Shown here piece by piece: positions 2,932 through 14,972 of a stretch of 41,777 nt of DNA. Source of the DNA: a virus. The stretch is from the UHGV virus genome UHGV-0060642; one strand, written 5' to 3'. Positions within the stretch are counted from its first letter, which is position 1. Every line of letters begins with the position of its first letter. Under the pieces are notes generated by a model. That model was not told the DNA's origin. It did no database searches and saw only the letters and a list, made by a program, of their open reading frames with translations. Position numbers and translations under genes: made by a program.

Positions 2932-3375
2932 TCACTCTCCTTTGATGCGAATGCCAGCGGCGCGGATTGCAGCGATGATCTCAGAAACTTTGTATGCCAT
3001 TACCGTTTGGTAATCATCGTGAAAATCTGTTCGATGAAGCATGCTGCTACGTTCCGGGAGCAGTATTTCCCGCGCTTCCAGTTCTGCAATGCGCTTTTTT
3101 GCTGCTTCCAGTTCATCCAGTAATTCCAGCACGGTAGCTGGATTGGCTGCGGTGATGAATTCAGCATTGGCCTGCTGTTCCATTTGGAAATCTTCATCGA
3201 AACCGCTTTCAGGATGCGCTCCTTCAATTCTGCAAATGGGAAGATATCCAACAACGTCACGATGAATTAGCGCATCATCACAATCAAATCGACTCTCTCC
3301 ATATTCGAGCGACCACACCCCACACGTTGCTTTCTCTGCCTTTTCACGCAGTGCCTGATAGTCAATTTCGCTCAC
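2932..3375 (-). CDS. Ead/Ea22-like protein (GTG start)
   Basis: 147 aa; segment ANPATVLELLDELEAAKKRIAELEA is typical of the Ead/Ea22-like family of lambdoid early-left regions; start codon GTG preceded by AAGGAGG. Confidence 0.7.
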   Translation of the reverse strand: MSEIDYQALREKAEKATCGVWSLEYGESRFDCDDALIHRDVVGYLPICRIEGAHPESGFDEDFQMEQQANAEFITAANPATVLELLDELEAAKKRIAELEAREILLPERSSMLHRTDFHDDYQTVMAYKVSEIIAAIRAAGIRIKGE

Positions 3376-3899
3376 TGGTTGCCTCCTTTGCGAAGCTGGG
3401 CGGCGAACTCGTTAAGTGATATGTAGCAATCTCCAAATGTTAACGAACCGCTCGACTGCATATGCTCCATAGCCATCTCTACCCCCTGCGCCCGTACTTC
3501 AGCCAGGAAAGCATCGGTGGCTGGGGTTTCTTCAAGCGCTCGCTTAACCTTTTCCTCAGCTTCGCAAATTGACTGAACCCAGAAGTCAGCGTGAGGTGGC
3601 CTGCCTGCCTTTTTTATCTCCGCACGAAGCTCAATTTGCTGAGTTACCGCAGATTTCAGTCTCACATTCTCCGCAGCCATCGCTGAAAACTTCTCGTGTG
3701 CCAACTTAACAGCTGCATCAGCCTGCTTAATTGACTCAATCGCTTTCTGGTGGTCTTCGGACAGAGCCGAAATCTTGGCCTCCGCTTCAGCAAATTTACG
3801 CACCAGATATTCAGCGTTTGTTTCGTTAACCATTAAATCTCGTGGGATGCATTTACCTTTCAGAAATCCATCCATCTCAATTAGTGACATTTGTTTCAT
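3372..3899 (-). CDS. Hypothetical coiled-coil protein, possibly Ea22 N-terminal-like
   Basis: Track ORF 3372-3917 begins with GTG; the first ATG (Met7, [12 protein letters not shown]) is preceded by a GGAG-like site; stop overlaps the downstream GTG start. Confidence 0.6.
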
Positions 3900-4093
3900 T
3901 TCTTCCCACTCCGCCACATCGCATTCAGATATTTGTTTTGATTTACTGATGGAAAAGAATTTCTCTTAAGTAATTCCTCTCTCGATGGCATTGGCTTTAC
4001 GCGTTGGCGAATAATCATTTCTGCCGGAAGAATGCTAGGATTGTATGCAAGTCCTCTCATGGTAAATTCCTCAGTCATTACTGATAGCGCCAT
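3896..4093 (-). CDS. Possible small ORF (65 aa)
   Basis: ATG ORF overlapping both neighbours by about 22 nt; no clear RBS seen; may be spurious. Confidence 0.3.
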
Positions 4094-4367
4094 AGCGTGA
4101 GCGGTAATTACGCAGGCGCGGGTCGATATATTCAGGGAATTTGTCTATTGTCGCTTTTCGCAACGGTCTCATTGCTGTTTCGTTTGTTCGGTCCTTCTCC
4201 TGTTTTAGCGCGAGTTGTATATCGCGTCGGTACATCCGTTCTGCTTTTGTTTCTGGTGTCATAGCAAGAAACGCGTCGAAATTGTTTTTGATATTTTCCA
4301 GCACCTCCGCCTTGGAGCTACCGGAGCAGTTGCGCGCGTCGTCCGCACCATACAGAGGCGCTGGCAT
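4071..4367 (-). CDS. Hypothetical protein
   Basis: 98-aa ORF with ATG and an AAGG upstream. Confidence 0.6.
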
Positions 4368-4390
4368 AATGGGAGCCTTATTTTCAGTAA

Positions 4391-4978
4391 TCAGAAATGA
4401 GGGTAATCGTTCTGGCTGTAACCATAATCATCTGCATGATTCTGGCTTACGTTTTTAGAGCGATTGTCTTTATCTTTGAGGCTGGCAACCATGTTGGCGA
4501 TAGTTTCTGGTTGCTTGCCTTCCGCCTTTTCTTTAAGGGTTTGACCTGTTTGTGCAATAAACGGGATGCGTATTTCCATCTGGTAACTATCTGCGCCAGT
4601 CTTTTTGTTTGTGGTTAATACTTTCTGGAGCACTAACCCGATTTTCTTTCCATGAAACTCAGGAGCAACAAATTTACTGGCGGAAACCATATGTTGCGTT
4701 AACTGTCCAATCCCGGCACACCCCATCATGGCGTGAACGACATTTGCGCCAAATTTGTTTTCCGTTCCGTCATTTTTCTGAACACAGACGCTAAGATATT
4801 GGATTTTACGTCCGTCGTCGGATTCGCCAGAAAACTCAATAAATTTTGCACCTTTTTCTGATTGCTTGAGTTCTGCTTCAGTAATGGTAATGATATGAGC
4901 GCCAGTTTCATTAATAAAACCACCTTGTCCTGCGGTCAGTGCTGCTTCTTCGTTATAAGTAAAAATTACGTTGCTCAT
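4391..4978 (-). CDS. Putative ssDNA-binding protein, partner of the Sak4-like ATPase
   Basis: 195 aa; translationally coupled downstream of the Sak4-like gene; acidic/aromatic C-terminal tail ...DDYGYSQNDYPHF resembles SSB C-terminal tails; assignment by context. Confidence 0.55.
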   Translation of the reverse strand: MSNVIFTYNEEAALTAGQGGFINETGAHIITITEAELKQSEKGAKFIEFSGESDDGRKIQYLSVCVQKNDGTENKFGANVVHAMMGCAGIGQLTQHMVSASKFVAPEFHGKKIGLVLQKVLTTNKKTGADSYQMEIRIPFIAQTGQTLKEKAEGKQPETIANMVASLKDKDNRSKNVSQNHADDYGYSQNDYPHF

Positions 4979-5655
4979 GCGGCGTTTTCCTTAATTTGAT
5001 GAACATTATTGATGCCGTAGTAATCACAAACAGTGGCATCGACGAAAGAGAGATCGTTATCAATCTCATTGGAATCAAACATTCCCATTGGGGATTTAAC
5101 AGTGTCTGCACCGTTGTTTTTCGTGGTGAAAAAGAACTGGTCATCGCGGGTAAGAGTGCGAAGAACTATAGTAAACATGCCTTCGACAGTGATTTTTTCG
5201 TCCAGCATTTTGCCGATAGTCTTCATTTTCACACGCCCAACAGGGGTTTCTTCGGTATGGGCAAGAAAATAGACTCTCAGGTCATCAGGCGCATCCTGTG
5301 CAGCCTTAATGACCTCCCATGCGTGACGGCCTATCTCAGTGAATTTATCAAACGATTTTTCTTCTGAGCGGCGCATAAACTCATTACTCATCACATACTG
5401 GAAGTCATCAACAATAACGATTCTTTTCCCGTATTCGTGAGCACGCTTAATTACGGCAACTATTACGTCCCATTTGTCAGTGGTAACTACGGTTCCTTTT
5501 TTTGCTCTAGCATCCCATGCAAGCCAGTCTTTTGATTTAAATGGTAGCGGCTTGCCTATTGGTTTTATAAGTATTGCTTCCTCTGGATTGATATTTCTCA
5601 TGCTGGTTGATTTTCCGGTGCCAGACTCACCGAGTATTAATGTCGCAGTTCCCAT
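4975..5655 (-). CDS. Sak4-like RecA-fold ATPase (phage recombination protein)
   Basis: 226 aa; Walker A GESGTGKST at the N-terminus, Walker B RIVIVDDF; size and motifs typical of Sak4-family annealing ATPases that replace Red or Erf. Confidence 0.7.
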   Translation of the reverse strand: MGTATLILGESGTGKSTSMRNINPEEAILIKPIGKPLPFKSKDWLAWDARAKKGTVVTTDKWDVIVAVIKRAHEYGKRIVIVDDFQYVMSNEFMRRSEEKSFDKFTEIGRHAWEVIKAAQDAPDDLRVYFLAHTEETPVGRVKMKTIGKMLDEKITVEGMFTIVLRTLTRDDQFFFTTKNNGADTVKSPMGMFDSNEIDNDLSFVDATVCDYYGINNVHQIKENAA

Positions 5656-5663
5656 AATTTGCC

Positions 5664-5864
5664 TCAGAATGGTAATTCGGATGGGGAGGAAAGAAACTCG
5701 CGCTCATTCATGCGCTCTCTTTGCGCCTGCCATAAACAAAGTTGTTTCTTTGATTTATCTCCCGCTTTACGCCAGTAACGAGCCTCAGCAATGTGATATT
5801 CTCTTTTTAATCGACTTAACTCTGGAGTTTTCGCCAGTTCTACCGGAATCATTTTGACCTCCAT
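5664..5864 (-). CDS. Hypothetical protein
   Basis: 66-aa ORF, ATG start, overlaps the kil end by 16 nt. Confidence 0.5.
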   Translation of the reverse strand: MEVKMIPVELAKTPELSRLKREYHIAEARYWRKAGDKSKKQLCLWQAQRERMNEREFLSSPSELPF

Positions 5865-5962
5865 TTCCTGTAGGCTTCTACGGCCTCACGAAACATCTTT
5901 TCATCGCCAATAAAAGTGGCGATAGTGAATTTAGTCTGGATAGCCATAATTGTTTGATCCAT
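5849..5962 (-). CDS. kil: Host cell-division inhibitor Kil-like peptide
   Basis: MDQTIMAIQTKFTIATFIGDEKMFREAVEAYRKW matches the recalled lambda Kil N-terminus; overlaps the cIII 3' end as in lambda; start set at the internal Met of the track ORF. Confidence 0.65.
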   Translation of the reverse strand: MDQTIMAIQTKFTIATFIGDEKMFREAVEAYRKWRSK

Positions 5963-6095
5963 TTTTTGGGACTCCTGGCTGATTAAGTATGTCGATAAGG
6001 CGTTTCCATCCGTCACGTAATTTACGGGTGATTCGTTCAAGTAAAGATTCGGAAGGGCAGCCAGCAACAGGCCACCCTGCAATGGCATATTGCAT
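5931..6095 (-). CDS. cIII: CIII (protects CII from FtsH)
   Basis: MQYAIAGWPVAGCPSESLLERITRKLRDGWKRLIDILNQPGVPKNGSNNYGYPD matches recalled lambda CIII (54 aa); ATG at 6095 preceded by AAGGAG. Confidence 0.9.
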   Translation of the reverse strand: MQYAIAGWPVAGCPSESLLERITRKLRDGWKRLIDILNQPGVPKNGSNNYGYPD

Positions 6096-6154
6096 GGTGT
6101 GCTCCTTATTTATACATAACGAAAACGCCTCGAGTGAAGCGTTATTGGTATGCA

Positions 6155-6181
6155 TATAAAAAGGCCCTCACACTGGAGGGC
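6155..6181 (-). terminator. Rho-independent terminator in the leftward operon (tL-like)
   Basis: Minus-strand hairpin GCCCTC-cagtgt-GAGGGC followed by TTTTT. Confidence 0.6.
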
Positions 6182-6274: not shown

Positions 6275-6433
6275 TTATTCGCATCGCATGACAACATCAA
6301 ATTTTTCGAGATTACTTTGTCGCAACAATCCTTCTTCTACGCGGTCAGCTTTTCTATAATTATCAAATTCGAAATGTTTAATTACTTCTTTTGTTCCTCG
6401 CTCTATAACTTCAACAATGTATTTCTTATTCAT
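6275..6433 (-). CDS. Small ORF (52 aa) translationally coupled to the upstream gene
   Basis: Not in the ORF track (below its length cutoff); its ATG overlaps the upstream stop as TGATG; translation MNKKYIVEVIERGTKEVIKHFEFDNYRKADRVEEGLLRQSNLEKFDVVMRCE read directly from the sequence. Confidence 0.4.
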   Translation of the reverse strand: MNKKYIVEVIERGTKEVIKHFEFDNYRKADRVEEGLLRQSNLEKFDVVMRCE

Positions 6434-6729
6434 CATTCTTCACCAAGAGCTTTTCTGATTGCTGCAAGACCTTTATTAACAGCTCCATACCATTCTGGAT
6501 ATGTTGTCGTTGTTCTATTTTTGGTTTGCTTAAGTAATAACTGAAGTGCTTCGAGAAGGTCAGGTGCTGCCGCTATTAGATTGGCATCTTCAATGCATTG
6601 AACTTCCTCACAGATTGCAATATACGAACGCCAGCCTGCGCCATTTTCAAGTGAGTCAGCCTGGATGATTTTAATCTCATCGCCATCCATCATTATTTCC
6701 CACTTACCTTCAGTACCTTTAAATTCCAT
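6433..6729 (-). CDS. Hypothetical protein
   Basis: 98-aa ORF with ATG, in the position of lambda ea10; no family recognised. Confidence 0.65.
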   Translation of the reverse strand: MEFKGTEGKWEIMMDGDEIKIIQADSLENGAGWRSYIAICEEVQCIEDANLIAAAPDLLEALQLLLKQTKNRTTTTYPEWYGAVNKGLAAIRKALGEE

Positions 6730-6768: not shown

Positions 6769-6969
6769 TCAGGAAGCCTTGTTGTTCTGTTTACCAATTT
6801 CTCTGGCAATCATTGCCGTCGTTCGTATTGCCCATTTATCGACATATTTCCCATCCTCCATTACAGGAAGCATTTCTTCAGGCTTAACCATGCATTCCGA
6901 TTGCAGCTTGCATCCATTGCATCGCTTGAATTGTCCACACCATTGATTTTTATTAATAGTCGTAGTCAT
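6769..6969 (-). CDS. ral: Restriction alleviation protein Ral
   Basis: 66 aa MTTTINKNQWCGQFKRCNGCKLQSECMVKPEEM...DKWAIRTTAMIAREIGKQNNKAS closely matches recalled lambda Ral. Confidence 0.85.
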   Translation of the reverse strand: MTTTINKNQWCGQFKRCNGCKLQSECMVKPEEMLPVMEDGKYVDKWAIRTTAMIAREIGKQNNKAS

Positions 6970-7047: not shown

Positions 7048-7347
7048 TCAAATAAGTGGTTTGCTGCCTAATTTCATTTTCTGGCGACCAACACAAGTCA
7101 CACCCATTTCACTGCGTGGCTTGCGGTAGTAAATACGATTCTGTTTACTCTCGACTTCTTCTGCCTTCTTGCAGCGAAGGCTTCCGAGTGATGCTGCTTT
7201 ATCTGCTCTGACGCAACCAGAGAGCTTTAGCGCAATTTTTCGCGCCAGTCGCTGCTCTTGCATTGCCTGTTCACGTTGAGCCTGTCTGCGTGCTCTGCGG
7301 CGATTTCTGGCGTTATCATCAGCCAGATATGTAATGACTACTGTCAT
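7048..7347 (-). CDS. N: N-family transcription antiterminator
   Basis: C-terminus ...GVTCVGRQKMKLGSKPLI resembles the lambda N C-terminus; arginine-rich motif NARNRRRARRQAQREQ near the N-terminus; start at internal ATG (7347) preceded by GGAGG. Confidence 0.8.
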   Translation of the reverse strand: MTVVITYLADDNARNRRRARRQAQREQAMQEQRLARKIALKLSGCVRADKAASLGSLRCKKAEEVESKQNRIYYRKPRSEMGVTCVGRQKMKLGSKPLI

Positions 7348-7658
7348 GTTGACCTCCGATGAAACAACTTTGGAATTGATAGTGATTGCAAAGTGGTTTC
7401 TGGCCCCTCGAACTGAGGGGCAGAAAGAGCATCTCGCCACCTAATAGGTCGATGCTCGGATCGAGAGATTTAATTAACCTCGGTTTTGAAGTTATGCATT
7501 CACATAAATCCTCCTGTTGCATGTGCAGCATTGGCTGTGTTTGGCGGCTGCATTTCGCCCATGGAATTGACTTTGGCGGTGACGCGCCGGATGCTTATCT
7601 TCCGGTTGCCGTCGTGCAGCTGCACTTCACGTCACCCCAAAGCCAACTACTCTTTGGT

Positions 7659-7864: not shown

Positions 7865-8515
7865 TTATGGAAGGTTTGCTAGTTTTGCATCGACAACTAC
7901 GCCGATGATTTTGCAGTTTCCGTTGATCTCGATCATCGGATATTGTGGGTTAAGTGGTTTTAGAAACTTCCTGCCTGCATCAATAACTAACTTCTTGAAA
8001 GTTGCCTCGTTTTCTCCTTCGAGCTTTGCAACTACCAGTTTCCCGTTACGCGGCTCTACTTCAGGATCGACGAGTATTATCATTCCTTCAGGGATACTGA
8101 GACCGGCTGGAGCCGTCATTGAGTCTCCCTTCACGTCCAACCAAAACGAATCTTCTGAACAGTCTACGGTTGTATCGTACCAGTTATCTATTGCACGCTT
8201 ATGATATGGTTCTACAGCTTCCATCCAGCATCCTGCGCTCACCCAGCTAATCAGAGGGAATGACCCTCTTGGATTATGCCTACTGTGATAGGCAATGTTT
8301 GAAAGACTTTCCTCTCCTTTCATCAGATAGTCAGGGGAACACTTCAACGCATTAGCCAGGGCGAGAAGATTCTCTCCATTTGGCTCTGTCTCAGAGCGTT
8401 CCCACTGAGATATGGCAACATTAGACACGCCGACCATCTTTCCAAGTGCGGCCTGCCTGATCTTGAGTTCTTTTCTCCGAGCGCGAATGCGCTCTCCCAT
8501 CAATTGAGTTTTCAT
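7865..8515 (-). CDS. c2: CI-type repressor, P22 C2-like (HTH plus LexA-like autocleavage domain)
   Basis: 216 aa; MKTQLMGERIRARRKELKIRQAALGKMVGVSNVAISQWERSETEPNGENLLAL... matches recalled P22 C2; S24 peptidase-like C-terminal domain (GDSM...K). Confidence 0.95.
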   Translation of the reverse strand: MKTQLMGERIRARRKELKIRQAALGKMVGVSNVAISQWERSETEPNGENLLALANALKCSPDYLMKGEESLSNIAYHSRHNPRGSFPLISWVSAGCWMEAVEPYHKRAIDNWYDTTVDCSEDSFWLDVKGDSMTAPAGLSIPEGMIILVDPEVEPRNGKLVVAKLEGENEATFKKLVIDAGRKFLKPLNPQYPMIEINGNCKIIGVVVDAKLANLP

Positions 8516-9480: not shown

Positions 9481-10428
9481 ATGAGCAATACAGCAAAAAT
9501 CTACGATTTCAGCGCCGCACACGAGCGCAGGAGCAACAGGATGGAGAACCAGAAAACTGGTTACATTCCGTTGTACCGGAGCATTCTGAAACAGTCATGG
9601 GCGAAAGATGTTTATCTTCGCACCCTGTGGGAAAACCTTCTCCTGAATGCCGCCAGAAAGCCATACAAAGCGAATTTCAAAGGTCATGAATGGCATCTGC
9701 AACCCGGTCAACTGGTTGTGACAGCAGCTGATTTAGGTCTTCAGTTATGCGACAGGCATGGCAAGCCAGCAAGCCGCGATCAGGTTGAGCGGATGCTTCG
9801 GGTTTTTGTGAAAGAGGGGATGATCTCCATTGATGGAGAGAAGCAAAAAGGTCGTGTGATAACCATCACAAATTACCATGAATACGCTCAAAAAATGGAC
9901 AATTCACCCGCACATGAAGCCGCACAAACAACCGCACATCATGCCGCACATGACGAAGCCAGCAATGGCGCGGCTTTCAGAGTACATGCCGCACATGAAA
10001 GCGCACATGAAGCCGCACAAACAACCGCACATCATGAACAAGAAGGTATTAACAAGAATATAAATAATACCCCCCTACCCCCCAATGGGGGAGGCGATGG
10101 GCAGGTTAAACCTGAACGTCGCAAGGCAGAACGAATCGACTACGAATCCTTCCTGAACGCCTACAACACCGAAGTCGGTGACAGACTGCCACACGCTGTT
10201 GCGGTCAACGAGAAACGCAAACGCCGCCTGAAGAAAATCATTCCGCAACTGAAAACGCCAAACGTGGACGGTTTCAGAGCGTATGTCAGGGCGTTTGTGC
10301 ATCAGGCCAAGCCGTTTTACTTCGGAGACAACGACACTGGCTGGACGGCAGATTTTGATTACCTGCTGAGGGAAGATTCGTTAACGGGAGTTCGGGAAGG
10401 GAAGTTTGCAGACAGGGGGATTGCATGA
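9481..10428 (+). CDS. Replication initiation protein (lambda O / P22 gp18 analogue) with internal origin
   Basis: 315 aa; position directly upstream of the helicase; central His/Ala-rich repeats ([10 protein letters not shown] twice) encoded by DNA iterons; assignment by position and architecture. Confidence 0.75.
9906..10070. repeat. Putative replication origin: iterons plus AT-rich tract inside the initiator gene
   Basis: At least four copies of (g)ccgcacatga, a roughly 30-bp direct repeat catgaagccgcacaaacaaccgcacatcatg present twice, followed by AT-rich aagaaggtattaacaagaatataaataatac. Confidence 0.65.
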
Positions 10429-11801
10429 GACAGGATATCGAAGCGAGCGTTATCGGTGGCCTGCTGATTGGTGGATTAACACCAACCGCCAGTGACGTTC
10501 TGGCAACACTGGAGCCGGAAGCGTTTTCAATTCCGCTCTACCGGAAAGCCTTCGAGGTTATCCGCAAGCAGGCGAGAAACAGAAACCTAATCGATGCGCT
10601 GATGGTTGCCGAGGCGTGCGGAGAGGAGAATTTCACGTCAATCCTGATGACCAGCAAAAACTGTCCGAGTGCCGCAAACCTGAAGGGATATGCCGGAATG
10701 GTCGCGGATAACTATCACCGCCGTCTGGTGCTGGAAATCATGGATGAAATGCGTGAACCAATTCAGAGCGGAACCATCGATACATCGAGTCAGGCGATGG
10801 ACGAGCTTGTAAAGCGTCTTTCAGCTATCAGAAAGCCCCGTGACGAGGTTAAACCTGTACGGTTAGGGGAAATCATCACTGACTACACTGACACGCTTGA
10901 CAGGCGTCTGAGGAACGGAGAAGAGTCCGATACCCTGAAGACCGGAATCGAAGAACTTGATGCCATCACCGGAGGGATGAACGCAGAAGACCTGGTGATA
11001 ATCGCTGCTCGTCCTGGTATGGGGAAAACCGAACTGGCGCTGAAGATTGCCGAAGGCGTTGCAAGCCGCGTTATTCCTGGTTCTGACGTCCGGCGCGGGG
11101 TATTGATTTTCTCAATGGAAATGAGCGCATTGCAGATTGCAGAGCGAAGCATTGCCAACGCCGGGAGGATGTCGGTTAGCGTACTGCGAAATCCTGCATC
11201 GATGGATGACGAAGGCTGGGCGCGTGTTGCTAACGGCATGAGTCAGCTTGCAGATTTGGATGTATGGGTAGTCGATGCCTCGCGGTTATCGGTCGAAGAA
11301 ATACGCTCAATCGCAGAACGGCATAAACAGGAAAATCCAAACCTGTCTCTAATCATGGCGGATTATCTTGGCCTGATTGAGAAGCCGAAAGCAGACCGCA
11401 ACGACCTCGCAATTGCTTACATCTCCGGAAGCCTGAAGGCGATGGCGAAAGACCTGAAAACGCCCGTTATCTCCCTGAGTCAGCTTTCGCGCGATGTTGA
11501 GAAGCGACCAAACAAACGCCCGACAAACGCAGATTTGCGTGATTCAGGAAGCATTGAACAGGACGCAGACTCAATCATCATGCTCTATCGGGAAGCTGTA
11601 TATGACGAGAACAGTAGCGCCGCGCCATTTGCTGAAATCATTGTGACGAAAAACCGTTTTGGCTCACTTGGTACGGTTTACCAGCGGTTCTGCAACGGAC
11701 ACTTTGTTGCATGTGACCAGGATGAAGCCAGACAGATTTGCACAGCATCAAATGCACCTGCTGCGCGTGGCAGACGATATGCACAAGGGGCGGACGTATG
11801 A
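10425..11801 (+). CDS. Replicative DNA helicase, DnaB family
   Basis: 458 aa; Walker [15 protein letters not shown], DnaB-like C-terminal RecA-fold motifs; ATGA overlap with the initiator gene. Confidence 0.92.
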
Positions 11802-12097: not shown

Positions 12098-12454
12098 ATG
12101 GACGAATCAAGAAAGCAGTTTGAGGAATACGTTGCCAAAAAATTGAGATTACCATTCGAGATGATAACCGAGGCAAGAAATGGTGATAGGTACTTCGCAT
12201 TTTCAAGCATGGATATTCGTCACTCCTTAAATGAGTGGTGGACTTTATGGCAGGCATCGCGAGCAGCTATTGCACTGGATATCGACTGGCCCGAATCGAA
12301 TGACGACTTTTGGAAAGATGGTGAAGAAGGTGCTTATGCGATGGGTTATGAGGATGGGCGTGACAAAACGGTAATTGCAGTAATGAAAGCTATCAGAGCC
12401 GCTGGAATTAAAGAGAAGAATTTCGATGAAGCAAACAATCTTCCTCCGAAGTAA
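12098..12454 (+). CDS. Hypothetical protein
   Basis: 118-aa ORF, ATG preceded by GAGGGT. Confidence 0.65.
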   Translation: MDESRKQFEEYVAKKLRLPFEMITEARNGDRYFAFSSMDIRHSLNEWWTLWQASRAAIALDIDWPESNDDFWKDGEEGAYAMGYEDGRDKTVIAVMKAIRAAGIKEKNFDEANNLPPK

Positions 12455-12836
12455 GCAACAACAGCAAGCCGCAATCAACGCCATCCTCGCAACACCACTC
12501 GATAAAGACAAGCCAGTCACCATCCGCATTACTGACTACAAGCGAAATCTTGACCAGAACGCAAAATTTCACGCGATGCTGGCGGATATCGCACGTCAGG
12601 TTCAATGGTGCGATAAATGGTTAAAACCAGAACAATGGAAGGTTTTGTTGATAAGCGGTCATGCAGTGGCAACAAAACAGGAAGCTGATGTTTTGCCCGG
12701 GCTTGAAGGCGAATACGTCAACATTCGCGAAAGTAGCGCGCAGATGAGTGTGAAGCGTATGGCAAGTCTGATTGAGTACACGACAGCATGGGCTATTGGT
12801 CAGGGTGTCAGATTTACCGACAGGAGGTACGAATGA
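12426..12836 (+). CDS. ninB: NinB-like recombination protein
   Basis: 136 aa; pattern ...[22 protein letters not shown]...W... resembles lambda NinB; position at the start of the nin region. Confidence 0.75.
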
Positions 12837-13009: not shown

Positions 13010-13956
13010 CGATGACTGCGTATTACAACGAAATAGATCCGTATGCAGCGCAATGGCTGCGTAACTTAATTGACGCTGGAGAAATTGCCCCCGGTTATGT
13101 AGATGAAAGGAGTATTGAAGATGTCACACCAGGTGATTTGCGAGGATTTACCCAGCACCACTTTTTTGCAGGAATCGGAGTTTGGAGCTATGCACTTAGA
13201 AAAGCAGGATGGCCAGACAACAAGAGTATCTGGACAGGAAGTTGCCCATGCCAACCTTTCAGCTCGGCAGGCAAAGGAAAAGGGGTTGATGACGAGCGGC
13301 ACTTATGGCCGGCATTCTTCTGGCTTATTGAAAAATGCAATCCTGGCATCGTTATTGGCGAACAGGTTGCAAGCGCAGACGGTCTCGCTTGGCTCGACCT
13401 TGTACAAACTGACTTGGAAGGTGCGAACTACACCTCTGCAGGTACCGATATTTGCGCTGCGGGCTTCGGTTCTCCGCACATCAGGCAGCGATTGTATTGG
13501 GTGGCCTACTCCAACGACAAATATCAACTTTCAGCCAGAGACGCGCAGGGGAATTCAGAACCTATCTGGATGCGTGAGACTAGCGGGATGGCAAACTCCT
13601 TTAGCGAACGATGCAACAGGTTCAACGCATTGCTACAGCGGAAAAGACAAGAGCGGAACCCCAAGAATCTGCTTGAAACTTCCCGGGACGGTGAAGCTAT
13701 GTACCCATTACCGGTTAACGGCTTCTGGAGAGATGCAGACTGGCTTTACTGTAGAGATGAAAAATATCGTCCAGTTAGACCCGGCTCATTCCCGATGGTT
13801 AATGGCATTGCCAAAAGCTTGGGACGAGGCAAGTCCACACTGGGAAGAATGGCAAAGCGCAATCAAGATCAGCGAATTATTGGATATGGAAACGCAATCA
13901 ATGCAGAAGTAGCAACGGCATTCGTGAAAGTTTGTATGGAGGTTGTTAATGCTTAG
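13006..13956 (+). CDS. DNA cytosine-5 methyltransferase (apparent orphan)
   Basis: Motif I-like FFAGIG, motif IV PCQPFS, motif VI-like GEQV, motif [13 protein letters not shown], motif [15 protein letters not shown], all in this frame; no adjacent restriction endonuclease gene evident. Confidence 0.85.
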
Positions 13957-14125: not shown

Positions 14126-14330
14126 TTACCTGAAATGGTATCTCTGCCACCGCTGGTTAATTAAGTTTGCTGTAAAAGACTGGATGACAGCGGATGCCAA
14201 CAAGCTTAAGCAAAGAAAAGACTATTACTACGCCAGAATGAAGGAAAACTACTGCTCAATTCGCACTCGCATATTTATTAAAAAAGACCTTCAGTCAATT
14301 CTTCAATTGCGAGGGAAGGTAAATGGCTAA
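14118..14330 (+). CDS. Hypothetical protein
   Basis: 70-aa ORF in the nin region. Confidence 0.5.
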   Translation: MSDYLKWYLCHRWLIKFAVKDWMTADANKLKQRKDYYYARMKENYCSIRTRIFIKKDLQSILQLRGKVNG

Positions 14331-14613
14331 CCTACGCAAAGAAGCGCGCGGCAGAGAATGCCAGGTACGTATTTACGGCGTATGCAATGGCAATCCTGAA
14401 ACTACAGTTCTGGCACATTACCGGATGGCTGGAATTTGCGGAACGGGAATGAAGCCTGACGACCTGATCGGCGCATGGGCTTGTAGCGCGTGTCACGATG
14501 AAATCGACCGACGCACCCATAATCTCGACAACAAAGACGCCAGACTTTACCACCTCGAAGGCGTGATCAGGACGCAGGCGATACTGCTGAAGGAGGGGAA
14601 GATTAAGTCATGA
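14323..14613 (+). CDS. YbcO-like (DUF1364) putative nuclease
   Basis: 96 aa; RGRECQVRIYGVCNGNPETTVLAHYR...CSACHDEIDRRTH resembles recalled DLP12 YbcO. Confidence 0.75.
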   Translation: MANLRKEARGRECQVRIYGVCNGNPETTVLAHYRMAGICGTGMKPDDLIGAWACSACHDEIDRRTHNLDNKDARLYHLEGVIRTQAILLKEGKIKS

Positions 14614-14972
14614 ACGAATATCAGTTTGTGCTCCCATACCCGCCGTCGGTGAATACCTACTGGCGAAGACGGGGAAGCCAATATTACATAAGCGACAAAG
14701 GCCAGAAATACCGAAAAGACGTTCAGCAAATCATCCGCCAACTCAAGTTAGACATTTTCACCAAATCACGACTCCGTATCAAAGTCATCGCAGACGTTCC
14801 GGACTCCCGCCGTCGCGACCTCGACAACATCCTGAAAGGTTTACTCGACTCCCTTATCCACGCCGGATTTGCGGAAGACGACGAGCAATTCGATGACATT
14901 CGCGTAATTCGTGGCGTGAAAGTACCAGGCGGAAGGCTTGGAATAAAAATCACCGAACTGGAGAACGCATGA
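14610..14972 (+). CDS. rusA: Holliday junction resolvase RusA
   Basis: 120 aa; PPSVNTYWRRR...DVPDSRRRDLDNILKGLLDSL...GGRLGIKITEL matches the RusA family. Confidence 0.9.
   Translation: MNEYQFVLPYPPSVNTYWRRRGSQYYISDKGQKYRKDVQQIIRQLKLDIFTKSRLRIKVIADVPDSRRRDLDNILKGLLDSLIHAGFAEDDEQFDDIRVIRGVKVPGGRLGIKITELENA

What the first reader, a model, noticed from the sequence alone, without database searches (positions are those of the whole stretch)
4391..5655. Sak4-type ATPase plus SSB-like partner replace the lambda Red recombination genes
Downstream of cIII and kil, where lambda carries gam, bet and exo, this phage has a 226-aa Walker A/B ATPase of Sak4 type followed by a coupled 195-aa protein with an SSB-like acidic/aromatic C-terminal tail. 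No exonuclease or Gam-like gene was recognised. The 66-aa ORF (5664-5864) between kil and the ATPase is unassigned.
Basis: partly seen in the sequence, partly recalled or inferred. Interest (0 to 1): 0.4.

Follow-up and report, generated by a model that had tools for sequence, protein, structure and literature searches.

The report
HK620-type Sak4–SSB phage recombination module
This is an ordinary, already characterised phage recombination cassette (hkaM–sak4–ssb–abc2), with Sak4 and SSB about 99% identical to the phage HK620 proteins whose biochemistry was published in 2018.

Summary
Both ORFs exist exactly as described: 4975-5655(-) encodes 226 aa and 4391-4978(-) encodes 195 aa, joined by an ATGA overlap. 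The ATPase is a Sak4 (PHROG 2872, E 1e-107). Its model best matches a solved Sak4 and then RAD51/RadA. It is 224/226 identical to HK620 HkaL, the Sak4 shown to be an ATP-dependent single-strand annealing protein. The 195-aa protein is 193/195 identical to HK620 HkaK, a biochemically proven SSB whose last six residues recruit and stimulate Sak4.

The "unassigned" 66-aa ORF is HkaM (61/62 identical; function unknown, and not tested on its own in the published assays). The next gene, 4071-4367(-), is a full-length P22-type Abc2 anti-RecBCD protein (Pfam E 3e-34; PDB 8b1t E 1e-30). There is indeed no exonuclease, as in P22 and HK620.

The window is a P22-like E. coli phage, and the sak4-ssb DNA matches in 303 of 5,426 complete E. 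coli genomes. The only unusual point is a private P194H change in the SSB tail (NDYPHF instead of NDYPPF). That position varies across the family, so the change is probably tolerated. Verdict: correct call, already known, low interest.

The parts
5664..5852 (-). hkaM homolog, 62 aa from the second ATG (the mechanical ORF runs to 5864, 66 aa). Small basic protein of unknown function and first gene of the module.
   Evidence: 61/62 identical to HK620 HkaM. PHROG 1723, E 2e-33. GGAGG lies 5 nt upstream of the ATG at 5850-5852, and that ATG overlaps the kil stop as ATGA. No Pfam or NCBIfam hit.
4975..5655 (-). sak4: a 226-aa RecA-core-only ATPase and single-strand annealing protein.
   Evidence: PHROG 2872 E 1e-107. 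Pfam AAA_24 30.2 bits against cut-off 27. 224/226 identical to HK620 HkaL/Sak4. Model pLDDT 88.6. Top PDB fold hit is 8rc5 Sak4, E 1.6e-7, followed by RAD51/RadA.
5608..5631 (-). Walker A (P-loop) codons of Sak4, residues 9-16, GESGTGKS.
   Evidence: Read from the translation. G9, S11, G12, G14 and K15 are invariant and S16 is at least 90% conserved in 51 homologs.
5404..5421 (-). Walker B codons of Sak4, residues 79-84, IVIVDD.
   Evidence: Read from the translation. D83 and D84 are invariant in 51 homologs.
4391..4978 (-). ssb: 195-aa HK620-type (DUF669-named) single-stranded-DNA-binding protein, the cognate partner of Sak4.
   Evidence: PHROG 743 E 3e-66. 193/195 identical to HK620 HkaK/SSB. 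ATGA overlap with sak4. Model pLDDT 80.7 with a beta-rich core and a disordered tail at 177-195. Top fold hits are the OB-fold protein PrgE (E 8.8e-4) and then bacterial SSBs.
4394..4411 (-). Codons of the C-terminal hexapeptide NDYPHF of the SSB. The HK620 equivalent, NDYPPF, is the Sak4-recruiting tail. The His194 codon CAT is at 4397-4399.
   Evidence: Sequence. The requirement for the last six residues is reported in PMC5928155. The His allele was not found elsewhere, whereas the Pro allele is in 165 E. coli genomes.
4071..4367 (-). abc2: 98-aa anti-RecBCD protein, the functional counterpart of lambda Gam in P22-like phages.
   Evidence: Pfam PF11043 E 3e-34. PHROG 656 E 2e-44. Full-length match to the P22 Abc2 chain of PDB 8b1t, E 1e-30. 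59% identical to HK620 Abc2 and 98% identical to the Stx-phage allele.
5849..5962 (-). kil (37 aa from M43 of the 79-aa ORF). Upstream neighbour, and its stop overlaps the hkaM start.
   Evidence: Pfam Lambda_Kil E 1e-19 on residues 44-74. Same coordinates as HK620 kil after the constant 90-nt offset.
5931..6095 (-). cIII (54 aa from the internal ATG of ORF 5931-6155). It marks the upstream border of the recombination slot.
   Evidence: Translation MQYAIAGWPVAGCPSESLLERITRKLRDGWKRL.... 95.8% nt identity to the HK620 cIII region.

Best explanation
Positions 4071-5852(-) hold the four-gene homologous-recombination module of HK620-type P22-like phages: hkaM-sak4-ssb-abc2. It is transcribed from pL after N, ral, cIII and kil.

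Proposed mechanism:
1. After infection or induction, Abc2 binds host RecBCD through the RecC subunit. It stops RecBCD from destroying phage DNA ends and from responding to Chi, and redirects it to produce resected ends. This is why the phage carries no exonuclease of its own.
2. The phage SSB coats the exposed single strands. Once it is bound to DNA, its acidic/aromatic C-terminal tail is exposed.
3. Sak4, a RecA-core-only P-loop ATPase, is recruited by that tail onto SSB-coated ssDNA. With ATP it anneals complementary single strands, for example at replication forks or resected ends. This gives RecA-independent recombination and probably helps the switch to concatemer-forming replication.

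What is shown here: the identity of the genes, their order, their translational coupling, the conserved ATPase motifs and both folds.

What was shown by others on proteins 99% identical: ATP-dependent ssDNA binding and annealing by Sak4, stimulation by the SSB, dependence on the last six SSB residues, and absence of strand exchange in vitro.

What is inferred: that this works the same way in this phage in vivo, the Abc2 step, and any role for HkaM.
For: - Identity to the characterised proteins: Sak4 224/226, SSB 193/195, HkaM 61/62.
- Same gene order, and a constant 90-nt coordinate offset relative to HK620.
- Family scans: PHROG 2872, 743 and 656; Pfam AAA_24 and PF11043.
- Folds: the Sak4 model matches solved Sak4 8rc5 and RAD51/RadA. 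The SSB model matches the OB-fold protein PrgE and bacterial SSBs.
- Walker A and B residues are invariant in 51 homologs.
- Tight packing: ATGA overlaps at kil/hkaM and sak4/ssb, and gaps of 8 and 23 nt with Shine-Dalgarno-like sequences.
- The Sak4-SSB pair keeps the same 4-nt overlap in a Providencia contig whose SSB is 58% identical.
- Biochemistry and genetics of the HK620 proteins: PMC5928155.
- Abc2 function and the lack of nucleases in the P22 and HK620 Rec modules: PMC5928155 section 7 and PMC12315714.
- Abc2 aligns over its full length to the PDB 8b1t chain.
Against: - Nothing contradicts the assignment.
- Caveat 1: the SSB tail here is NDYPHF and not the tested NDYPPF, and this allele was not seen in any other collection.
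- Caveat 2: Abc2 is a divergent allele, only 59% identical to the P22 and HK620 proteins, so its exact effect on RecBCD is extrapolated.
- Caveat 3: Pfam DUF669 was not hit by hmmscan, although NCBI gives close relatives that name.
- Caveat 4: the Foldseek TM-scores for the SSB are modest (0.42 and 0.60).
- Caveat 5: no experiment was done on this phage.
Confidence: 0.93

Rival explanations
1. The genes are the HK620-type module, but the module is attenuated in this particular genome. The private P194H substitution in the SSB C-terminal hexapeptide weakens recruitment of Sak4 or of host partners. The pair would then anneal only at the low level of Sak4 alone, for example as drift in a resident prophage.
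For: - The last six residues of the HK620 SSB are needed for Sak4 binding to SSB-coated ssDNA. Deleting them lowered recombineering about 10-fold relative to the wild-type pair (PMC5928155).
- The His allele is absent from 5,426 E. coli genomes, 50,697 phage records and the viral contig collection. The Pro allele occurs in 165 genomes.
- From my own knowledge: the penultimate Pro of E. coli SSB is the residue changed in ssb-113.
Against: - Across 117 full-length family members the penultimate residue is Pro in only 65. Asp, Gln, Ser, Thr, Ala and one His also occur there.
- The terminal Phe is kept in 107 of 117 members and is intact here.
- All four ORFs are intact, and the rest of the SSB differs from HK620 only at residue 153, where phage JEP4 also has Glu.
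Confidence: 0.08
2. The ATPase is an unrelated P-loop protein, such as a DnaC-like helicase loader, a packaging ATPase or a defence-type ATPase. The 195-aa protein would then be no SSB, and the resemblance to a recombination module would be only positional.
For: Generic AAA Pfam families (AAA_22, AAA_16) also score weakly. Neither protein has a sequence relative in the PDB.
Against: - PHROG 2872 Sak4, E 1e-107, over the full length.
- 99% identity to the biochemically characterised HK620 Sak4 and SSB.
- The top fold hits are Sak4, RAD51, RadA and RAD51 paralogs, with no DnaC or terminase listed among the top 50.
- The replication initiator-like and helicase-sized ORFs lie elsewhere, at 9481-10428 and 10425-11801 (compare the JEP4 annotation).
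Confidence: 0.01
3. The main in vivo job of the pair is to support phage DNA replication (fork restart, priming of rolling-circle replication). Genetic recombination would be a by-product of that job.
For: - Rec-module genes are implicated in the theta-to-sigma switch of lambda (PMC12315714).
- Sak4 with its SSB gives only low crossover recombination and no strand exchange in vitro (PMC5928155).
- SSBs are core replication proteins (general knowledge).
Against: This is not exclusive of the best explanation. The same annealing chemistry underlies both roles, and no data in this window tell them apart.
Confidence: 0.2

Closest known systems
Phage HK620 recombination module hkaM-hkaL(sak4)-hkaK(ssb)-hkaJ(abc2) (Clark 2001; Lopes 2010; Hutinet 2018, PMC5928155)
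   Same: Same four genes in the same order, with the same lengths (62, 226, 195 and 98 aa), the same overlaps, and the same position after cIII-kil. Sak4, SSB and HkaM are 98-99% identical in protein. DNA identity is 96-99% outside abc2.
   Different: Abc2 is a different allele: 59% aa and 71% nt identity, falling to about 51% nt in its central 100 nt. The SSB tail is NDYPHF against NDYPPF, and residue 153 is E against V. Sak4 has D43 against E and V139 against M.
Phage P22 arf-erf-abc1-abc2
   Same: Same slot in the pL operon of a P22-like phage. Both have a homologous Abc2 and no phage exonuclease, and both rely on a hijacked RecBCD.
   Different: The P22 annealing protein Erf is Rad52-like and has no ATPase activity. 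P22 Abc1 and Arf are unrelated to the SSB and HkaM found here (PMC5928155 section 7).
Lambda Red (gam-bet-exo)
   Same: Same genomic slot downstream of cIII-kil and the same overall task: protect ends from RecBCD and anneal single strands. Both support oligonucleotide recombineering.
   Different: No Beta, Exo or Gam homolog is present. Annealing is ATP-dependent, is carried out by a RecA-fold protein and needs a dedicated SSB. RecBCD is modified by Abc2 and not blocked by Gam.
Staphylococcal phage Sak4 (PDB 8rc5, complex with the SaPI2 Stl repressor), RAD51 paralogs, RadA and RadB
   Same: Same RecA-core fold. Foldseek E 1.6e-7 to 8rc5 and about 1e-6 to RAD51, RadA and the XRCC3/RAD51C/D paralogs.
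   Different: Only 10-16% sequence identity in the structural alignments, and TM-scores of about 0.5. Sak4 lacks the extra N- and C-terminal domains of RAD51 and RecA, and HK620 Sak4 performs no strand exchange in vitro.
T4 UvsY/gp32, RecO/SSB and Rad52/RPA annealing on SSB-coated DNA
   Same: [quoted passage not shown]
   Different: Those annealing proteins are not RecA-fold ATPases, and they act as mediators for a separate strand-exchange protein. Sak4 does not stimulate RecA.

Membership tests
Sak4 (RecA-core-only phage SSAP) | Significant full-length match to a Sak4 family profile | tested here: met
   PHROG 2872 E 1.2e-107, residues 1-220 on profile positions 1-218 of 219. Also PHROG 124. 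Pfam AAA_24 30.2 bits against cut-off 27.
Sak4 (RecA-core-only phage SSAP) | RecA/Rad51 core fold without the extra N- or C-terminal domains | tested here: met
   226 aa. Model pLDDT 88.6, pTM 0.88. Best PDB matches are 8rc5 Sak4 (219 aa), RAD51, RadA and RAD51 paralogs, all with probability 1.00.
Sak4 (RecA-core-only phage SSAP) | Conserved Walker A and Walker B motifs | tested here: met
   G9xSGxGK15 and D83-D84 are invariant in 51 homologs at 54-99% identity.
Sak4 (RecA-core-only phage SSAP) | Adjacent cognate ssb gene | tested here: met
   ATGA overlap with ssb. Same arrangement in HK620, JEP4 and Providencia locus L003. About 80% of sak4 genes are next to an ssb gene according to PMC5928155.
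Sak4 (RecA-core-only phage SSAP) | ATP-dependent ssDNA binding and single-strand annealing | not testable with these tools
   Shown for the HK620 protein, which differs at 2 of 226 residues.
HK620-type phage SSB (PHROG 743; named DUF669 by NCBI) | Significant match to the family profile | tested here: met
   PHROG 743 'single strand DNA binding protein' E 3.2e-66. 193/195 identical to SSB-HK620.
HK620-type phage SSB (PHROG 743; named DUF669 by NCBI) | Pfam DUF669 HMM hit | tested here: inconclusive
   hmmscan against this Pfam-A copy gave no hit even at E <= 10. However, NCBI names the 98%-identical cluster and many relatives 'DUF669 domain-containing protein', and PMC5928155 equates HkaK with DUF669.
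HK620-type phage SSB (PHROG 743; named DUF669 by NCBI) | OB-fold-like DNA-binding core | tested here: met
   Model pLDDT 80.7 with a beta-rich core. Foldseek top hits are PrgE with and without DNA (8s4s, 8s4t; E 9e-4 to 3e-3; TM 0.42 by query and 0.60 by target), followed by many bacterial SSBs at E about 1e-2. The match is modest, as expected for a distant homolog.
HK620-type phage SSB (PHROG 743; named DUF669 by NCBI) | Disordered acidic/aromatic C-terminal tail ending in Phe | tested here: met
   Tail HADDYGYSQNDYPHF. pLDDT is below 50 for residues 177-195. The terminal residue is F in 107 of 117 homologs. The penultimate residue is His here and Pro in HK620.
HK620-type phage SSB (PHROG 743; named DUF669 by NCBI) | ssDNA binding, and tail-dependent stimulation of Sak4 | not testable with these tools
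   Shown for the HK620 protein. The NDYPHF allele has not been tested.
Abc2 anti-RecBCD (P22 type) | Pfam PF11043 match above the gathering score, over the full length | tested here: met
   117.5 bits against cut-off 25, residues 1-98 on profile positions 1-97 of 97. PDB 8b1t chain A E 1e-30, end to end.
Abc2 anti-RecBCD (P22 type) | Binds RecC and modifies RecBCD activity | not testable with these tools
   Known for P22 Abc2 (PMC12315714). The window allele is 59% identical to it.
Lambda Red (Beta / Exo / Gam) | Homologs of Red-beta, lambda exonuclease or Gam in the early-left operon | tested here: not met
   Pfam and PHROG scans of the main ORFs between 1407 and 7440 gave no such hit. A few small ORFs (1098-1316, 1778-2101, 6275-6436) were not scanned.
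   No such family appears in the Pfam, PHROG or NCBIfam output or in the top 50 fold matches.

The most novel reading that the evidence does not exclude
The private P194H change in the SSB C-terminal hexapeptide (NDYPHF) is a functional retuning and not a neutral change. It would alter which partners the tail recruits (Sak4 against host SSB-interacting proteins) or weaken the coupling. That would make this allele a natural separation-of-function variant of the Sak4-SSB handshake. A second open point is that HkaM, which travels with the module at 98% identity, could be an accessory factor that oligonucleotide recombineering assays do not detect.
Probability: 0.08. Interest if true: 0.25.

Novelty: already known. 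Interest (0 to 1): 0.08.

Why it matters
It matters little beyond correct annotation. The module is the textbook alternative to lambda Red and P22 Erf in lambdoid phages, and its mechanism was published in 2018 for proteins that differ from these at two residues each.

Correct naming is still useful. RefSeq and GenBank records call these genes 'ATP-binding protein', 'DNA binding ATPase', 'hypothetical protein' or 'DUF669'.

The module also shows that this phage has a complete RecA-independent annealing system together with a RecBCD hijacker. That bears on mosaicism among Stx-converting and P22-like prophages, where the same cassette circulates.

Tried and rejected
- Pfam DUF669 test of the SSB: no hit even at E <= 10. 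I therefore relied on the PHROG hit, the fold and the identity to HK620.
- NCBIfam: only noise for Sak4 (E > 0.01, far below the cut-offs) and nothing for SSB, HkaM or Abc2.
- Sequence search of the PDB: nothing for Sak4 and only noise for SSB. A fold search was needed to find 8rc5 and PrgE.
- Concern that P194H mimics E. coli ssb-113 and inactivates the tail: weakened by the family survey, which shows the penultimate position is variable. I kept it as a low-probability rival.
- Search for the source of the His allele in E. coli genomes, phage records and viral contigs: no match. The exact source genome is in none of these collections.
- Hidden exonuclease in the early-left operon: none found.
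- Chi-site enrichment as a sign of a RecBCD-dependent strategy: only one Chi octamer in the whole window. Not pursued.
- The PHROG 1723 label 'recombinase' for HkaM: there is no supporting Pfam or NCBIfam hit, and PMC5928155 calls HkaM an orphan of unknown function. I suspect the label comes from the old positional 'arf' naming (my inference), so I did not treat it as evidence of function.

Full report
**Observation.**
- The stop of the first ORF overlaps the start of the second as ATGA.
- The 226-aa protein has a P-loop, GESGTGKS, at residues 9-16 and a Walker B, IVIVDD, at residues 79-84.
- The 195-aa protein ends in HADDYGYSQNDYPHF.
- Upstream in the transcript lie kil (Pfam Lambda_Kil, E 1e-19) and cIII (MQYAIAGWPVAG...).
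- The 66-aa ORF 5664-5864 sits between kil and the ATPase.

**What the two proteins are.**
- *The ATPase.* PHROG scans give 'Sak4-like ssDNA annealing protein' (PHROG 2872, E 1.2e-107, full length). Pfam gives AAA_24 just above its gathering score.
- *The 195-aa protein.* PHROG gives 'single strand DNA binding protein' (PHROG 743, E 3.2e-66).
- *Identity to HK620.* The annotated HK620 genome (AF335538) carries hkaM, hkaL, hkaK and hkaJ at the same relative coordinates, offset by exactly 90 nt. Protein comparisons give 224/226 for HkaL (Sak4), 193/195 for HkaK (SSB), 61/62 for HkaM and 58/98 for HkaJ (Abc2).
- *Published biochemistry.* HK620 HkaL and HkaK are the proteins characterised by Hutinet et al. 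2018 (PMC5928155). Sak4 binds ssDNA and anneals complementary strands only with ATP. It is a poor annealing protein alone (15-fold over background in recombineering) and is stimulated to 210-fold by its SSB. Deleting the last six SSB residues (NDYPPF) abolishes Sak4 binding to SSB-coated ssDNA and lowers recombineering about 10-fold. Neither protein promotes strand exchange in vitro.

**Independent checks.**
- *Conserved motifs.* In 51 Sak4 homologs at 54-99% identity, G9, S11, G12, G14, K15, D83 and D84 are invariant.
- *Sak4 fold.* The AlphaFold model (pLDDT 88.6) best matches PDB 8rc5, deposited as a 'RecA-like Sak4 SSAP' bound to the SaPI2 Stl repressor. The next matches are RAD51, RadA and the RAD51 paralogs, all with probability 1.0.
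- *SSB fold.* The SSB model (pLDDT 80.7, with a disordered tail at 177-195) best matches the plasmid OB-fold protein PrgE, then bacterial SSBs. TM-scores are modest, which fits the 'distant SSB homolog' of the paper.
- *Searches with no result.* Sequence searches of the PDB find nothing for either protein. Pfam DUF669 was not hit, although NCBI names close relatives DUF669.
- *Conserved pairing.* In a Providencia contig whose SSB is 58% identical, a 226-aa AAA_24 protein again precedes the SSB with a 4-nt overlap.

- *Abc2.* The ORF immediately downstream, 4071-4367(-), is a full-length Abc2 anti-RecBCD protein. Support: Pfam PF11043 E 3e-34, PHROG 656, and an end-to-end match to the P22 Abc2 chain of PDB 8b1t at E 1e-30. 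'No Gam-like gene' is therefore wrong in functional terms.
- *No exonuclease.* This part is right, and it is the known design of the P22 and HK620 Rec modules. They use the hijacked RecBCD for resection (PMC5928155 section 7; PMC12315714).
- *HkaM.* The 66-aa ORF is HkaM. Its real start is probably the second ATG (5850-5852). That ATG has GGAGG 5 nt upstream and overlaps the kil stop. Its function is unknown. In the published assay, sak4 plus ssb reproduced the activity of the whole module.

**Context.**
- *Type of phage.* The window is a P22-like (Lederbergvirus) E. coli phage or prophage. The early-left region is 97.5% identical to phage JEP4 and about 97% identical to many Stx-converting phages. 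The late genes resemble CUS-3 and Kapi1.
- *Gene map.* It has an integrase at 50-1120, an N-like gene at 7048-7440, ral at 6769-6969 and a repressor-sized ORF at 7865-8515. NinB/Orf is at 12426-12836 and RusA at 14610-14972.
- *Prevalence.* The sak4-ssb DNA matches in 303 of 5,426 complete E. coli genomes (179 at 80% coverage or more), always on the chromosome. The 90%-identity protein clusters hold more than 1,000 member sequences each.

**Small peculiarities.**
1. The SSB tail is NDYPHF, whereas HK620 and JEP4 have NDYPPF. A 40-mer centred on the variant base finds no match for the His allele in E. coli genomes or phage records, and an exact 24-mer finds none in the viral contig collection. 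The Pro allele is in 165 genomes. Across 117 full-length family members the penultimate residue is Pro in only 65, and one member has His. The terminal Phe is kept in 107. The change is therefore probably tolerated, but it has not been tested.
2. abc2 is a replaced allele. It has 71% nt identity to HK620, falling to 51% in its centre, between flanks of 96-99% identity. It is 98% identical in protein to the allele in Stx phages.

**Mechanism and verdict.** The best explanation (confidence 0.93) is the published HK620 mechanism.
1. Abc2 redirects RecBCD.
2. The phage SSB coats ssDNA and exposes its tail.
3. Sak4 is recruited by the tail and anneals complementary strands with ATP.

Gene identity, gene order, coupling, motifs and folds are shown here. 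The biochemistry was shown by others on proteins about 99% identical. The in vivo role in this phage, the behaviour of this Abc2 allele and any role for HkaM are inferred. The finding is already known and of low interest.

Noticed in passing
window 4397-4399 (-), codon 194 of ssb: The SSB C-terminal hexapeptide is NDYPHF, whereas HK620 and JEP4 have NDYPPF. The His allele was found in none of 5,426 E. coli genomes, 50,697 phage records or the viral contig collection. The Pro allele is in 165 E. coli genomes. The position varies across the wider family (Pro in 65 of 117), so the change is probably neutral. It could also be a sequencing error.
   Followed up: yes
window 4071-4367 (-): abc2 is an allele-replacement patch. 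It has 71% nt identity to HK620 (51% over 4186-4285) between flanks of 96-99% identity. The protein is 59% identical to P22 and HK620 Abc2 but 98% identical to the Abc2 of Stx2a-converting phages and TL-2011a. The N- and C-terminal ends of the protein are conserved.
   Followed up: partly
window 5849-5864 (-): The mechanical ORFs overstate two genes. hkaM probably starts at the ATG at 5850-5852 (62 aa), which overlaps the kil stop as ATGA and has GGAGG upstream. kil is probably the 37-aa product starting at M43 of the 79-aa ORF (5849-5962), as annotated in HK620.
   Followed up: partly
L003 2649-4588 (Providencia-derived Logan contig): In this distant relative, the Sak4-SSB pair (same lengths, same 4-nt overlap) is preceded by a 222-aa RNase_T/ExoX-like exonuclease instead of HkaM. 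No Abc2 Pfam hit is recorded downstream. Some versions of the module therefore carry their own nuclease.
   Followed up: no
window 12426-12836 (+) and 14610-14972 (+): The nin region encodes a NinB/Orf recombination mediator (PHROG 72, E 3e-53) and a RusA Holliday-junction resolvase (PHROG 34, E 5e-54). The phage therefore has further recombination functions outside the pL module.
   Followed up: partly
window 40303 (- strand): There is only one Chi octamer (GCTGGTGG) in the whole 41.8-kb window, near the right end and on the minus strand. I did not compare this with expectation or with the Chi-rich lambdoid phages described in PMC12315714.
   Followed up: no
window 5664-5864 (-): PHROG 1723, which HkaM matches at E 2e-33, is labelled 'recombinase'. 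No Pfam or NCBIfam family supports this, and PMC5928155 describes HkaM as an orphan of unknown function. I suspect the label is a legacy of the old positional 'arf' naming, but that is my inference.
   Followed up: partly
window 13103-13912 (+) and 14323-14613 (+): The nin region also carries a DNA methyltransferase-like ORF (PHROG 1008, E 3e-23) and an ORF matching PHROG 131, 'HNH endonuclease' (E 1e-49).
   Followed up: no
window 2932-3375 (-), 3372-3917 (-), 3896-4093 (-): Downstream of abc2 lie a DUF2737 protein, a 181-aa protein of unknown function (PHROG 614) and an Ead/Ea22-like protein. This is the typical variable 'ea' region of P22-like phages. None shows nuclease or recombinase similarity.
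   Followed up: partly
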